Source of the DNA: a virus
Taxonomy: Duplodnaviria > Heunggongvirae > Uroviricota > Caudoviricetes
DNA length: 36,201 bases
Direction: 5' to 3' (one strand)
Virus record (IMG/VR): IMGVR_UViG_2711768014_000012
Shown here piece after piece: positions 23,501 to 26,500 of this stretch; within the stretch, counting starts at the first letter, position 1; every line of letters begins with the position of its first letter. The position numbers are program-made.

Positions 23501-26500
23501 CCTGCACAACCAACTAAACAAAAACCTATCGCTGCTATTAATACCTTTTTCATTACAGTCATAACCTAGAAGCATCATTGAAACTAATTTATTAAATAAC
23601 CATCGAGTTTCTGGAATACAGACGTTAACCATCTCTCCAAAATCTAAAAGATAATAAGAAAAAATGTTTAACGCACCAATCCATTTCATAGTTTCATGAG
23701 ACATCAGGCACAAAAAACCCGCTCAGCGGCGGGTTTTTGACATTTACCAACGGTAGACATACAAGGCCCATCGTTGAGAAAATCTTATCCATATTTTTTG
23801 AAAAATGCAAGTATCACGTCGACATCTTCGGCGAAAATTATCTATCTTGTCACTTTTCTCAATTGCGATTCAGCATACGCTTCTTCCTGCCAGCACTTTG
23901 TAACCAGTTTATTAATAACGTCTGCATATCCTTTGTACCACTGATAATCCGTCAGGTCCGGTACCAGTTTCTGGACATGATGCCGCGCCAGTGTGGTTGG
24001 TAAACGGCTAAACCGGTTGCCATTGCAACGCCCACAAATCTTATAAACAGGCACACCATGAAGCCGGGTTCTTTTTTCATCCAGGACAATACCTTTACCC
24101 TTACACCCTCTGCACGCTGTGCTGACTTCTCCCTTACCATGGCAATGCTGACATAGTTCCTTCACCCACTCTTCCTTGATAACAGATTCCCCGCTTCTGG
24201 AGTGTTTCACCACTTCGCGCAATACATTATGAAATCCAGTACCAGCACAATGCTCACAGCGAGCCTTACTTGCCGCAGACCTGGAATAATCAGCAAAGGC
24301 AAAATTCACAAGGTAAGGGATGATCTGTAACCGGGTTTCTTCACTCAATTTGTTCAATGTCGGGTTATCCAGTGCCATCGCGTAATTGAGCAGACCTTCA
24401 ATCGCAAATTGAGGATCCTGAACACCAACTTTTGCCAGGAATAAGGCAAACCCAAGCGGTGCTTTCGACTGCACCATCCCCTGCGCAGCCATCACATCCG
24501 TAATCGTTAAACCACCTGAGCCTGTCGCCGGTGCGTCATCGCTCAATTTTGGAGATTTTGGGGAGTAATATTTTGGTAAGGCTTCAAGGTTCATGCTCGT
24601 TCTCCACTTACGCCAATACGCCAATTGCCAGCGCACGATCGATAAAACGAAATATCAGCTCCAGCTGGGAGCCATACTTCTCTTCAAATGCCACGGTATC
24701 CGCATGCAGCTCGTCGTGATGCTTTCTGCACAAAGGCAACACAAAGAGGTCATGCGCTTTTGTACCCATTCCACCCTGACCGTGGCCTATCAGGTGGTGG
24801 GGATCATCAGCAGGCTTTCCACAACATGCACACGGCTGTGTCTTAACCCAGCGCGTGTACTTTTCATTAACCCAGCGGCGGCGTTTTGGGCGTAACATAA
24901 AAGACTCCGGCGACTCCGGATCCACTTTCAGCGCCAGCACCTTTTTTGCCTTATCCTGGATGATGCTGGTGGCAGGAACCGAAGGCACAAGGTCACTTTC
25001 CCGGGTGACAGACGGCACAACAGGCTTTGGTAATCTCAGTGCCTTACGGGCTGCACTTTCCGGTAAGGCATCCGCCAGGTCATTACGAATCAGCCACCAG
25101 CACAGTTCCGGCATTGTCACAACGTGACTATCATCAAAACCGAGATCCCGACGCACAACAGACAACACCCAGCGGGCACAGTTATCCGTTGCCATTGATT
25201 CCAGCCGTTCCGTGAACTGATCGCGCAGCTGGTTATCGCAGTGCCAGCACAGACGGATTGCGCCCGGAGCGTGTCGCATTGTGGTCATGTTCTCGCTGTG
25301 CCAGTCGGAATGAGGCCACTGGCAGCCTTTTTCACGAAGTAACCAGCTTTCAAGACATTCCACGCCACCAGCACGACGGATCACTGCCTCATTGCGGAAC
25401 ACGGCCCGAACGGCAGGATCATCCGCCAGCGGTTGTGATGCCGCCGGAACGGCACCACTGGCGAAAGATGAATAACGTTCCGGCTCAGGCTCCAGCAGAA
25501 CACGCCCCTGCATAAACAGGGGCATCAGCTCTGAACCTGGCCTGAACAATACGATCCCCATACGCGGGGCAATTTCAGGGGTCAGTAGTGCTCTCACGGT
25601 CACCTCAATGAACGGTATCGAGCAGCTTTAACAGCTCAGGGAATCGGGATTCGAAGAAATGCGGCTGCGTCTCGCGCGGATTTGCAGGACTGGTGATGTT
25701 CTTGCCGAACATGCAGCCTTTCGCCGTCAGCGACCAGAATTTTTTGATGTTGTTAATCGCGGTACGGCTGTATCGTTCGCGTTGTTCAACGATCCCCAGC
25801 TTCACCATCTGGTGATATGCCTGATTAGCCGTCAGGCGGATACCATACTGCTTCAGCAGTGCACTCAGCGACAGCGTGGGGCGACTTGAGCCATCAGGCG
25901 CGTCAGCAGGAGCATCAATGGCATAGCGCGGTGCCAGATTCGGTAAGCCAACAGCCTCCTGAAGCTTCTGACAGGCTCCAAGCACTGATGAGTTAGACAG
26001 ATTTAATTCCCGGCGCATAAAGTCCAGCAGGATCACGCCAGCCTGCATCTTGTCAGCAGCCTGTCCGGATAATTTTTCCGGTGCGCTGGTTACCATGTCG
26101 AAAGTACGGATCACCTTCAGATGGAATGACGGGCTGATCCACATTGCATAGGCATACACCAGTTCTTTGCAGACATACGTCCCCTGGTTATTTCCGCCAT
26201 TAATGACGCTAACTGGTTGATTTTGTTCCAGAGGCGGAATTCCACCCTCGGTGAAAAGTTGTTCAATCAATTCACAGGTTTGCTTATTGGAGAGCCAGTA
26301 TTTCGGGCGGTTTTTTTGTTCTCCCCCGGCTGCCCTGTGCAGATCGTTCAGGCTGTAACGCCCATAAGCATCACGACGAACTTCAATACCATCAATGACC
26401 ATCAGATTATTCATACTTCGTTTCTCCTCTTGATCAGGCGGCTGCACCCGCCGGTTTCTCATACTTACTGATAGTGATCTCGACCTTCCCTTTCTGGATA

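What the first reader, a model, noticed from the sequence alone, without database searches (positions are those of the whole stretch)
24608..26414. KilA-N and DUF968/HNH-like genes immediately upstream of Q
Between rusA and Q lie a KilA-N domain protein and a DUF968-like protein with a Cys/His-rich C-terminal motif (CACCGKP...HHLIGHGQGGMGTKAHD...CRKHHDELH) suggestive of an HNH-type metal site. Both families are common but functionally uncharacterised nin-region residents; the DUF968 start codon is uncertain.
Basis: partly seen in the sequence, partly recalled or inferred. Interest (0 to 1): 0.35.

Follow-up and report, generated by a model that had tools for sequence, protein, structure and literature searches.

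The report
Ordinary prophage KilA-N and HNH genes
These are two well-known but never functionally tested accessory genes of a lambda-like E. coli prophage, a KilA-N DNA-binding protein and a YdfU/DUF968 protein ending in an intact HNH-type nuclease domain, and they are present almost unchanged in phage SfV, Stx2c phages and over a thousand E. coli genomes.

Summary
On the minus strand, between rusA (26823..26434) and Q (24594..23842), lie a 269-aa KilA-N protein (26414..25605; Pfam 5e-27) and a 329-aa DUF968/YdfU protein (25597..24608; Pfam 3.5e-81). The HNH reading holds. The last ~100 residues match HNHc_6 above Pfam's cut-off. The expected catalytic and zinc residues (C256, C259, H267, H268, D283, C290, H293, H294, H298) are conserved in relatives down to about 28% identity. 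The family is already classified as a His-Me finger (group 7, with YbcO, PDB 3G27).

The start codon is resolved as the GTG at 25597. The block is 97-100% identical to SfV orf44/orf45, Stx2c phages and about 1,036 complete E. coli genomes, so it is already known.

Three details were added here:
- DUF968 stays next to rusA, while the KilA-N gene fills a swap slot that elsewhere holds Rha-ANT, ORF6N-ANT or nothing.
- The DUF968 protein has a second, N-terminal zinc-type module with no Pfam family.
- The C-terminal module of the KilA-N protein is shared with a Bro-N protein.

The likely role, a recombination-associated nuclease plus an accessory DNA-binding regulator, is inferred, not shown. Interest is low.

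The parts
25605..26414 (-). KilA-N domain protein gene, 269 aa (ATG 26414..26412, stop TGA 25607..25605)
   Evidence: ORF. Pfam KilA-N 5.1e-27. phrog_129 at 1.6e-128. PGAP CDS WP_001061380.1 has the same coordinates. All homologues start at MNxLMVIDG.
26088..26396 (-). KilA-N DNA-binding domain (residues 7-109)
   Evidence: Pfam PF04383 covers residues 7-109 of the 269-aa protein. It is 42% identical to the N-terminus of P1 KilA. Foldseek gives a weak match to the Mbp1 APSES domain.
25620..26030 (-). C-terminal module of the KilA-N protein (residues ~129-265), with no Pfam family. It contains the invariant motif GKNITSP.NPRETQPHFFE.
   Evidence: No Pfam hit at E<=1 apart from stray single-member hits. 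It is 40% identical to the C-terminal half of Pseudomonas phage JBD68 gp39, whose N-terminus is Bro-N. AF2 pLDDT is 78-90 for residues 180-250, with a helix/strand pattern like a winged helix. Foldseek matches to DnaD-N, DdrC, RTP and MarR are only weak.
24608..25597 (-). DUF968 / YdfU-family protein gene, 329 aa (GTG 25597..25595, stop at 24610..24608)
   Evidence: Pfam DUF968 3.5e-81. phrog_96 at 2.9e-177, with the alignment starting at residue 3 of the 331-aa ORF. PGAP CDS WP_001360050.1. Start-codon comparison.
25595..25607 (-). Junction between the two genes. The KilA-N stop TGA (25607..25605) overlaps the Shine-Dalgarno sequence GAGGTGA (25606..25600). This is followed by CC and then the GTG start (25597..25595), which points to translational coupling.
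   Evidence: Sequence read directly. In relatives the upstream gene, whether rusA or the Rha-ANT gene, overlaps the DUF968 start by 4 nt.
25118..25432 (-). N-terminal zinc-type module of the DUF968 protein (residues ~56-160), with putative ligands C92, H100, C117 and C120. No Pfam family.
   Evidence: C92 and C117 are invariant. Position 100 is His or Cys in 24 of the 25 relatives (26-51% identity) and position 120 in all 25. D121 is nearly invariant. AF2 pLDDT is 71-89, with strand-strand-helix at 104-124. No Pfam or PDB sequence match.
24620..25120 (-). Stretch matched by the Pfam DUF968 model (residues 160-326 of the 329-aa protein)
   Evidence: residues 162-328 of the 331-aa ORF match profile positions 2-171 of 171.
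24674..24847 (-). His-Me finger (HNH) core, residues 251-308. Zinc site: C256, C259, C290, H293. Catalytic and metal-binding residues: H267/H268, D283, H294, H298.
   Evidence: HNHc_6 match. Invariant residues in the HNH-retaining relatives. YbcO (3G27) is the top PDB profile hit, E=0.058, aligned in register. BFVD Foldseek hits to DUF968 (6e-6) and HNH proteins.
26434..26823 (-). rusA (Holliday junction resolvase), the conserved partner gene (context)
   Evidence: Pfam RusA 2.4e-15. rusA lies next to the DUF968 gene in 31 of 40 related loci.
23842..24594 (-). Q-type antiterminator with a DnaJ-type CxxCxGxG zinc finger (context)
   Evidence: Pfam Antiterm 6.9e-54 and DnaJ_CXXCXGXG 1.6e-8. PGAP names it ydfT.

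Best explanation
The region holds two accessory delayed-early ('nin-region') genes of a lambdoid E. coli prophage. They are read leftwards in one tightly packed operon: dam, lexA-N, rusA, KilA-N gene, DUF968 gene, Q.

Gene 1 encodes a two-module DNA-binding protein of the 'Bro network' of phage regulators, which exchange domains among themselves. It has an N-terminal KilA-N domain and an unnamed C-terminal module that also occurs behind a Bro-N domain. It sits in an exchangeable slot, which in relatives holds Rha-ANT, ORF6N-ANT or nothing. It therefore most likely acts as an optional antirepressor-like or DNA-binding regulator and is not a partner of its neighbours. This is inferred.

Gene 2 encodes a YdfU-family protein. 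Its last ~100 residues form a zinc-stabilised His-Me finger (HNH) nuclease domain with a full set of catalytic residues, shown at sequence level. Its N-terminal ~160 residues carry a second zinc-type module, possibly a degenerate copy of the nuclease domain, that I infer to serve substrate recognition.

The gene is kept beside rusA in most relatives, and its closest domain relatives are YbcO, P1 Ref (below threshold) and HNHc_6. I therefore infer that it nicks or cuts branched or single-stranded recombination or replication intermediates of phage DNA, a role like that of lambda Rap/NinG. It would be helpful but dispensable.

The identity of the genes is near certain (>0.95). The mechanism has a probability of about 0.45.
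For: Identity:
- Pfam, PHROG and PGAP assignments.
- The block is 97-100% identical in SfV, Stx2c phages and E. coli genomes.

Nuclease domain:
- HNHc_6 scores above its cut-off. RecA_dep_nuc matches 9 of 22 members and YbcO 6 of 22, both below threshold.
- Invariant residues in the 22 HNH-retaining relatives: C256, H267, H268, K280, D283, P288, H294, H298.
- YbcO (3G27) is the top PDB profile hit and aligns in register.
- BFVD Foldseek finds DUF968 and HNH proteins. The weak PDB hits include several HNH nucleases, such as Cap5 and Cas-HNH.
- Published classification and hypothesis: PMC5714182, PMC4999995.

Link to recombination:
- rusA lies within 1.5 kb upstream in 27 of 40 related loci and directly downstream in 4. 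In 6 loci it overlaps the DUF968 start.
- Fusions of the DUF968 domain to Erf, Rad52 and RusA are reported (PMC4118853).

Dispensability: P1 pdcB, a full-length homologue (26% identity, E=2e-32), is non-essential (PMC10695390, PMC10067587).

KilA-N slot and module shuffling: and the Bro-network description in PMC10111431.
Against: - No experiment exists for any YdfU-family protein, so nuclease activity and substrate are inferred.
- The structure model is of medium quality (pLDDT 65.6). No PDB Foldseek hit is significant (best E=0.87).
- There is no detectable similarity to lambda NinG/Rap or lambda Orf.
- A subgroup that includes P1 PdcB has lost the HH and H...H residues while keeping the N-terminal module. 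The family's core function may therefore not require catalysis.
- Adjacency to rusA could reflect inherited lambdoid gene order and not shared function. Nine of 40 loci show no rusA within 5 kb.
- For the KilA-N protein there is no evidence of a target or a partner.
Confidence: 0.6

Rival explanations
1. The DUF968 protein is a weapon and not a recombination enzyme. It would be a non-specific or modification-sensitive HNH nuclease that degrades host DNA or the DNA of competing phages and plasmids, or that counters a host defence.
For: HNH domains are common in toxins, restriction enzymes and defence effectors (PMC5714182). The weak Foldseek hits are defence-type HNH nucleases: Cap5, ScoMcrA and Cas-HNH. 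Two DNA methyltransferase genes lie in the same prophage (Dam at 27143-27796 and a second at 21507-22559). These could protect the phage's own DNA.
Against: There is no match to any PADLOC defence model. No immunity or inhibitor gene is consistently adjacent; the conserved neighbour is rusA. The gene is expressed from the early lytic operon and not in the lysogen (inferred from its position). The P1 homologue has no essential or reported exclusion phenotype (PMC10695390).
Confidence: 0.13
2. The DUF968 protein is mainly a zinc-finger protein that binds DNA or another protein, with regulatory or structural function, and its HNH motif is vestigial.
For: The N-terminal zinc-type module is better conserved across the whole family than the HNH catalytic residues. 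P1 PdcB and three other relatives lack the HH and H...H residues. The gene lies immediately upstream of the late-gene regulator both here (Q) and in P1 (lpa). One family member is annotated as a transcriptional regulator (PMC5714182).
Against: In the window protein and in 22 of 25 diverse relatives, all catalytic and metal-binding residues are invariant. This indicates selection for catalysis.
Confidence: 0.12
3. The DUF968 gene is a selfish, free-standing HNH homing endonuclease, or an HNH helper of the terminase for cos cleavage as in HK97 gp74.
For: Both are the most common roles of small HNH genes in phages (established knowledge). SfV carries an HNH gene next to its packaging genes.
Against: The gene lies about 5.5 kb from the terminase genes (TerS 19042..18548, TerL 18548..16446). 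Q, a methylase gene and the lysis cassette lie between them, and no HNH gene flanks the terminase here. The same DUF968 module occurs in SfV, which has its own separate terminase-side HNH (orf53), so it is independent of the packaging type. It is a 329-aa two-module protein at a fixed operon position and translationally coupled to its upstream gene, unlike sporadic homing genes.
Confidence: 0.05
4. The KilA-N protein is a host-killing or abortive-infection factor, as with P1 KilA or the BstA family, and not a regulator.
For: Its N-terminal domain is 42% identical to that of P1 KilA, whose product can kill the host (P1 annotation in PMC10695390). BstA, a prophage abortive-infection protein, has a KilA-N-like N-terminus (PMC8585504). 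There is a weak PADLOC hit to candidate system PDC-S22 (E=1.2e-6 over 36 residues).
Against: The similarity to P1 KilA is limited to the DNA-binding domain, and the C-terminal modules differ. BstA genes lie beside the repressor gene and are expressed in lysogens (PMC8585504), whereas this gene lies in the lytic early operon. The alternative occupants of the slot are antirepressor-type proteins.
Confidence: 0.1

Closest known systems
SfV orf45 / E. coli YdfU family (Pfam DUF968, PF06147; His-Me finger group 7 of Jablonska et al. 2017)
   Same: The window protein is 99% identical to SfV orf45 and the mEp460 homologue, and about 57% identical to Qin-type YdfU-like proteins. It has the same two-module architecture and the same neighbours (RusA, Q, antirepressor-like gene), as already noted in PMC5714182.
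   Different: Nothing of substance; this is a member of the family. The SfV record used a shorter ORF of 305 aa.
DLP12 YbcO (DUF1364, PDB 3G27)
   Same: It belongs to the same His-Me finger group. It aligns in register across the catalytic His, GTK..D and C..CH.E segments. It is also a nin-region gene near rusA in a lambdoid prophage (PMC5714182, PMC4999995).
   Different: YbcO is a 96-aa single-domain protein. The profile E-value is only 0.058, and only 6 of 22 relatives touch the YbcO Pfam model. YbcO has no N-terminal module.
Phage P1 PdcB
   Same: It is a full-length homologue (26% identity over all 329 residues, E=2e-32) with the same N-terminal zinc-type module. It also lies directly upstream of the late-gene activator.
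   Different: PdcB lacks the second His of the HH pair and both helix His residues (H294, H298). It may therefore be catalytically dead. It lies in a different genome context (phd-doc-pdcA-pdcB-lpa), with no rusA.
Lambda NinG/Rap and P1 Ref (RecA-dependent HNH nuclease)
   Same: These are predicted functional analogues: phage His-Me finger nucleases that act on recombination intermediates. Rap occupies the equivalent nin-region position in lambda (PMC5714182).
   Different: There is no detectable sequence similarity to NinG. The RecA_dep_nuc Pfam model scores 18.6 bits, below its cut-off of 26.9.
P1 KilA and other KilA-N (PF04383) proteins
   Same: The N-terminal DNA-binding domain is the same: 42% identity over ~104 residues and Pfam 5e-27.
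   Different: The C-terminal halves are unrelated. The C-terminal module here recurs instead in Pseudomonas phage JBD68 gp39, behind a Bro-N domain.
Rha-ANT and ORF6N-ANT antirepressor-like proteins (Bro network; Roi/Ant type)
   Same: They occupy the same slot between rusA and the DUF968 gene in related prophages. They share the same two-module logic: an N-terminal DNA-binding module followed by a C-terminal module (PMC10111431).
   Different: There is no sequence similarity. The C-terminal module here is not ANT/KilAC (hhalign E=0.29; Pfam ANT matches only 1 of 21 relatives, at E=0.13).

Membership tests
Pfam DUF968 (PF06147) / YdfU family | Match to the family profile above the gathering score | tested here: met
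   271.7 bits against a cut-off of 27.8, E=3.5e-81, profile positions 2-171 of 171.
His-Me finger (HNH) nuclease superfamily | Catalytic His at the end of the first strand, usually as HH or DH | tested here: met
   H267 and H268 are invariant in the 22 HNH-retaining relatives. They align with the catalytic His of YbcO.
His-Me finger (HNH) nuclease superfamily | Metal-binding Asn/Asp/His residues on the second strand and the helix | tested here: met
   D283, H294 and H298 are invariant in the same alignment. Which of them binds the metal is not determined.
His-Me finger (HNH) nuclease superfamily | Beta-beta-alpha-metal fold, often braced by a CxxC...CxxC/H zinc site | tested here: inconclusive
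   The zinc ligands C256, C259, C290 and H293 are present. The AF2 model shows short strands followed by a helix at 291-299, with pLDDT 74-89 but a disordered loop at 271-280. Foldseek against BFVD hits DUF968 (6e-6) and HNH proteins. PDB hits are not significant.
His-Me finger (HNH) nuclease superfamily | Metal-dependent nuclease activity | not testable with these tools
   This needs purified protein.
Pfam HNHc_6 (PF16784; Orf-like domain fused to HNH, Listeria/Staphylococcus type) | N-terminal lambda-Orf-like domain in front of the HNH motif | tested here: not met
   Only profile positions 123-184 of 204, the HNH part, are matched. The family profile compared with lambda Orf by hhalign gives E=0.46.
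Lambda NinG/Rap (PF05766) | Sequence similarity to NinG | tested here: not met
   BLASTP gives E=1.6 over 6 residues. There is no NinG Pfam hit even at E<=1.
P1 Ref / RecA_dep_nuc (PF16786) | Match to the family profile above the gathering score | tested here: not met
   18.6 bits against a cut-off of 26.9, E=0.0022. Nine of 22 relatives match below threshold. The protein is related but is not a member.
Terminase-associated HNH (HK97 gp74 type) | Gene adjacent to the terminase or portal genes and the cos site | tested here: not met
   The gene lies about 5.5 kb from TerS/TerL, with Q and the lysis genes between. SfV carries this gene and also a separate terminase-side HNH.
Pfam KilA-N (PF04383) | Match to the family profile above the gathering score | tested here: met
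   94.3 bits against a cut-off of 23.8, E=5e-27, profile positions 5-105 of 107.
Bro network of domain-swapping phage DNA-binding proteins | One of the network's N-terminal modules joined to a C-terminal module that recurs with other N-terminal modules | tested here: met
   KilA-N is one of the listed network domains (PMC10111431). The C-terminal module (residues 129-265) is 40% identical to that of JBD68 gp39, which has Bro-N at its N-terminus.
ANT / KilAC antirepressor C-terminal domain (PF03374) | Match of the C-terminal half to the ANT profile | tested here: not met
   One of 21 relatives matches, at E=0.13. hhalign against the Rha-ANT slot proteins gives E=0.29.
BstA abortive-infection family | BstA-type C-terminal domain, and a position beside the prophage repressor gene with expression in the lysogen | tested here: not met
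   PADLOC gives no hit other than a weak, partial match to PDC-S22. The gene lies in the early lytic operon between rusA and Q.

The most novel reading that the evidence does not exclude
YdfU-family proteins may be tandem His-Me finger proteins. In this reading the N-terminal zinc-type module (C92, H/C100, C117, C/H120, followed by a strand-strand-helix) is a degenerate, non-catalytic copy of the C-terminal HNH domain and reads DNA structure. The protein would then work with RusA as a two-nuclease unit for processing branched phage DNA. The gene between them would be a free slot in which Bro-network regulators (KilA-N, Rha-ANT, ORF6N-ANT) are swapped. That slot would include a C-terminal module, not yet catalogued, that is shared by KilA-N and Bro-N proteins.
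Probability: 0.25. Interest if true: 0.35.

Novelty: already known. Interest (0 to 1): 0.15.

Why it matters
The finding matters little by itself. Both genes are annotated in thousands of genomes, and the HNH nature of DUF968 and its neighbourhood (RusA, Q, antirepressor) are already published.

The practical gains are small:
- A firm start codon for a gene that databases annotate in three ways.
- A residue-level list of targets for mutagenesis.
- The observation that the nuclease gene travels with rusA while the KilA-N gene is an interchangeable cassette. The two genes of the finding should therefore not be treated as a functional pair.

The family is very common in E. coli, Shigella and Stx prophages, and no member has been tested. 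A simple nuclease and recombination assay would close a long-standing annotation gap in the lambdoid nin region.

Tried and rejected
- **PDB sequence searches.** Both whole proteins gave nothing significant. A profile of the C-terminal domain raised YbcO only to E=0.058. A profile of the N-terminal module found nothing.
- **Foldseek against the PDB.** Neither AF2 model gave a significant hit (best E=0.87 and 0.13). The models are of medium quality (pLDDT 65.6 and 70.1).
- **Internal duplication in the DUF968 protein.** hhalign on close homologues gave E=0.29. On diverse sub-alignments it gave E=0.042 with probability 1.3%, in a sensible register. This is suggestive only and is not claimed.
- **Similarity to lambda NinG and lambda Orf.** None was found.
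- **C-terminal module of the KilA-N protein as ANT/KilAC.** Not supported.
- **Database 'fusion' proteins** (KilA-N+DUF968 and RusA+KilA-N) as evidence of functional linkage. On reading the sequences they are deletion or frameshift products.
- **Hits to the N-terminal module alone** as evidence of an independent domain. They are truncated or frameshifted genes.
- **Defence-system models.** PADLOC gave no real hit.
- **Other features inside the two genes.** Repeats, promoter-like and terminator-like sites and Rfam families were examined. Nothing exceeded chance.
- **The search for related loci with the diverse alignments.** It failed for lack of a conserved 7-residue stretch. The synteny survey therefore covers only relatives of 40-99% identity, almost all Enterobacterales.
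- **The PK8217 annotation.** It is not colinear with the window below about 21.4 kb, because of masked N runs and indels. The late genes were therefore annotated from the window itself.
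Full report
**What is there.** All genes in this part of the window lie on the minus strand.
- rusA (26823..26434; Pfam RusA 2.4e-15) is followed after 19 nt by an ORF whose product matches Pfam KilA-N at 5.1e-27.
- After 7 more nt comes an ORF matching Pfam DUF968 at 3.5e-81 and HNHc_6 at 26.9 bits, against a cut-off of 26.6.
- After 13 more nt comes a Q-type antiterminator (Antiterm 6.9e-54, with a DnaJ-type zinc finger).
- PHROGs give the same picture: phrog_129 'transcriptional regulator' at 1.6e-128 and phrog_96 'HNH endonuclease' at 2.9e-177.
- NCBIfam has no model for either protein.

**How common it is.** The 3.1-kb block from Q to rusA is widespread:
- 98.8% identical in a series of Stx2c-converting phages;
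- 97.3% identical in Shigella phage SfV, where the genes are orf44 and orf45;
- 100% identical in E. coli PK8217;
- present at 80% coverage or more in 1,036 of 5,426 complete E. coli genomes, with at least part of it in 3,742.

PGAP annotates the identical sequence as 'KilA-N domain-containing protein' (WP_001061380.1, window 25605-26414) and 'DUF968 domain-containing protein' (WP_001360050.1, window 24608-25597). tblastn finds the DUF968 protein in 187 phage records and the KilA-N protein in 215. A search of 1.84 billion cluster representatives finds 3,096 relatives of the DUF968 protein at E<=0.001.

**Start codons.**
- For the KilA-N gene, the ATG at 26414 is supported by a GAGGAG sequence 9 nt upstream. 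All 20 aligned homologues also begin at MNxLMVIDG.
- For the DUF968 gene, three starts are in circulation: GTG 25603 from the ORF finder, GTG 25597 from PGAP, and an internal ATG in the SfV record.
- The GTG at 25597 is correct. Relatives down to 26% identity start at the same residue, as M-R/K-x-L-L.
- In 35 related loci the aligned codon is ATG (8), GTG (23) or TTG (4), always behind a purine-rich Shine-Dalgarno sequence.
- Residues 1-26 are conserved at the protein level: G14 is invariant even in the 25-sequence diverse alignment.
- Here the Shine-Dalgarno sequence GAGGTGA overlaps the KilA-N stop codon. In relatives the upstream gene overlaps the start by 4 nt. Translation is therefore probably coupled, which fits the weak start codons.

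**Anatomy of the DUF968 protein: C-terminal domain.** An alignment of 25 full-length relatives at 26-51% identity, together with sub-alignments, shows three parts.
- In the 22 relatives that retain the HNH motif, residues ~232-329 have invariant K238, C256, H267, H268, G273, K280, D283, P288, H294, H298, E305, G309 and Q311.
- C259, C290 and H/C293 are present in most. Several relatives that lack C259 have also lost C290.
- This is the usual pattern of an HNH domain: catalytic and metal-binding residues that are fixed, and a zinc brace that some members have lost.
- Scanned alone, this domain hits DUF968 (1e-54) and HNHc_6 (30.2 bits, above the cut-off). Below threshold it hits RecA_dep_nuc, YbcO, HNH, HNH_5 and HNH_2.
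- A profile search of PDB sequences puts YbcO (3G27) first (E=0.058), aligned in register, followed by IscB HNH domains.
- The AF2 model (pLDDT 65.6 overall, 74-89 in most of this domain) gives no significant PDB Foldseek hit. Several of the weak ones are HNH nucleases, namely Cap5, Cas-HNH and ScoMcrA.
- In BFVD the model hits small stand-alone DUF968 proteins (6e-6) and HNH endonucleases.
- The literature already places DUF968 with DUF1364/YbcO in His-Me finger group 7. It notes RusA, Q and antirepressor genes as neighbours, and it proposes a role in recombination (PMC5714182). The nuclease prediction for YbcO is in PMC4999995.

**Anatomy of the DUF968 protein: N-terminal module.**
- Residues ~56-160 are confidently modelled (pLDDT 71-89). 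They show helices, a hairpin at 104-117 and a helix at 118-124.
- C92 and C117 are invariant. Position 100 is His or Cys in 24 of the 25 relatives and position 120 in all 25, the behaviour expected of zinc ligands. D121 is nearly invariant.
- This module has no Pfam family and no PDB sequence relative.
- A profile-profile comparison with the C-terminal domain aligns C92 with C256 and C117 with C290, but only at E=0.042 and probability 1.3%. A degenerate duplication is a hypothesis, not a result.
- I found no example of the module outside this family. Apparent hits to the N-terminal module alone are truncated or frameshifted genes. The C-terminal domain, by contrast, does occur alone in proteins of ~107-125 aa.
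- The Gram-positive 'Orf-like domain plus HNH' architecture described by Curtis et al. (PMC4118853) does not apply here. Only the HNH part of HNHc_6 matches, and there is no similarity to lambda Orf.

**A distant, partly degenerate relative.** Phage P1 PdcB is a full-length homologue: 26% identity over all 329 residues, E=2e-32.
- It lies directly upstream of the late-gene activator lpa.
- It keeps the N-terminal module and the zinc cysteines. It lacks the second His of the HH pair, H294 and H298, as do three other relatives.
- PdcB is non-essential: CRISPRi efficiency of plating is 0.68 (PMC10695390), and a pdcB::kan mutant is viable (PMC10067587).
- The family is therefore accessory, and catalysis may not be universal in it. 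In the window protein the catalytic set is complete.

**Anatomy of the KilA-N protein.**
- Residues 7-109 form the KilA-N domain. They are 42% identical to the N-terminus of P1 KilA and give a weak Foldseek match to the Mbp1 APSES domain.
- Residues ~129-265 form a second conserved module, with the invariant motif GKNITSP.NPRETQPHFFE. It has no Pfam family.
- This module is not detectably ANT/KilAC. Its fold matches, all weak, are winged-helix DNA-binding proteins.
- The same module (40% identity) forms the C-terminal half of Pseudomonas phage JBD68 gp39, whose N-terminus is a Bro-N domain. Part of it also occurs in Paenibacillus phage Vegas gp43.
- The protein is therefore a typical member of the 'Bro network' of phage DNA-binding proteins that exchange domains, described in PMC10111431.

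**Synteny.** In 40 related loci from GTDB genomes (40-99% identity to the DUF968 protein, almost all Enterobacterales):
- rusA lies within 1.5 kb upstream in 27 loci and directly downstream in 4.
- Among the 27, the interval between rusA and the DUF968 gene holds:
  - nothing in 6 (the genes overlap);
  - a KilA-N gene in 7;
  - one ~235-aa protein family in 12, which is Rha plus ANT in the representative tested;
  - an ORF6N plus ANT protein in 1;
  - no clear ORF in 1.
- One further locus has a KilA-N gene upstream but no rusA.

The two genes of the finding are therefore not a functional pair. The nuclease gene is linked to rusA. The KilA-N gene is one of several interchangeable antirepressor-like cassettes.

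**Most likely mechanism.**
- Shown: both genes lie in the early lytic operon, upstream of Q. The DUF968 protein carries an intact His-Me finger active site and two Cys/His clusters.
- Inferred: it is a metal-dependent endonuclease that acts on branched or single-stranded intermediates of phage recombination or replication, alongside RusA. This would be functionally comparable to lambda Rap/NinG or P1 Ref.
- It is not a member of either of those families.
- The KilA-N protein is inferred to be an optional DNA-binding regulator of antirepressor type.
- Rivals are set out separately: a weapon nuclease, a non-catalytic zinc-finger protein, a homing or packaging HNH, and a killing or abortive-infection role for the KilA-N protein. 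The packaging role is the least likely. The gene is about 5.5 kb from a lambda-type TerS/TerL pair, and the same module occurs in SfV, which has its own terminase-side HNH.

**Verdict.** The observation and the interpretation are both correct, and the features are already known and annotated. Nothing about them is surprising to a phage specialist. The open question is what YdfU-family nucleases do. It is real but modest, and the published hypothesis already makes it testable. Interest is 0.15.

Noticed in passing
window 29619-29807 (minus strand): Rfam finds a C4 antisense RNA (RF01695, 82 bits, 29706..29619) and next to it an isrK Hfq-binding sRNA (RF01394, 64 bits, 29807..29731). Both overlap the PGAP 'ash family protein' gene in the early region. 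This looks like a P1/P7-type C4 RNA immunity element together with the Gifsy-1 isrK element, inside a lambdoid prophage.
   Followed up: no
window 26820-27146 (minus strand): A 108-aa protein consists only of the LexA DNA-binding domain (Pfam 2.1e-19) and has no S24 peptidase/cleavage domain. Its gene overlaps the start of rusA by 4 nt. A homologue lies upstream of rusA in about half of the 40 related loci. It could be a non-cleavable LexA mimic made during lytic growth.
   Followed up: partly
window 23842-24594 (minus strand): The Q antiterminator carries a DnaJ-type CxxCxGxG zinc-finger repeat (Pfam 1.6e-8), which is the QuuQ/YdfT type. In P1, the DUF968 homologue pdcB also sits directly upstream of the late-gene activator lpa.
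   Followed up: partly
window 782-910, 1313-1637, 2561-2725, 5152-5437, 5781-6011, 20991-21367: There are six runs of N (masked sequence). The last one removes part of the lysis region just downstream of the methyltransferase gene. Because of these runs and other indels, the window is offset by 405 nt from E. coli PK8217 over roughly 11.1-20.4 kb and is not colinear below that. From 21368 onwards it is nearly identical.
   Followed up: partly
window 21507-22559 and 27143-27796 (minus strand): The prophage carries two DNA methyltransferase genes: a 350-aa methylase between Q and the lysis genes, and a Dam-type N6-adenine methylase in the nin region (Pfam Dam 1.1e-45).
   Followed up: no
window 35629-36201 (minus strand): PGAP annotates a Panacea domain-containing protein at the edge of the window in the matching genome. 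This is a possible toxin-antitoxin antitoxin-type domain. The annotation is taken from the nearly identical PK8217 sequence and was not checked on the window itself.
   Followed up: no
proteins P0045, P0014, P0132 (database entries, not in the window): Public protein collections hold apparent KilA-N+DUF968 and RusA+KilA-N fusion proteins. Reading them shows internal deletions or read-through of this same operon in decayed prophages or draft assemblies. They are not true domain fusions.
   Followed up: yes
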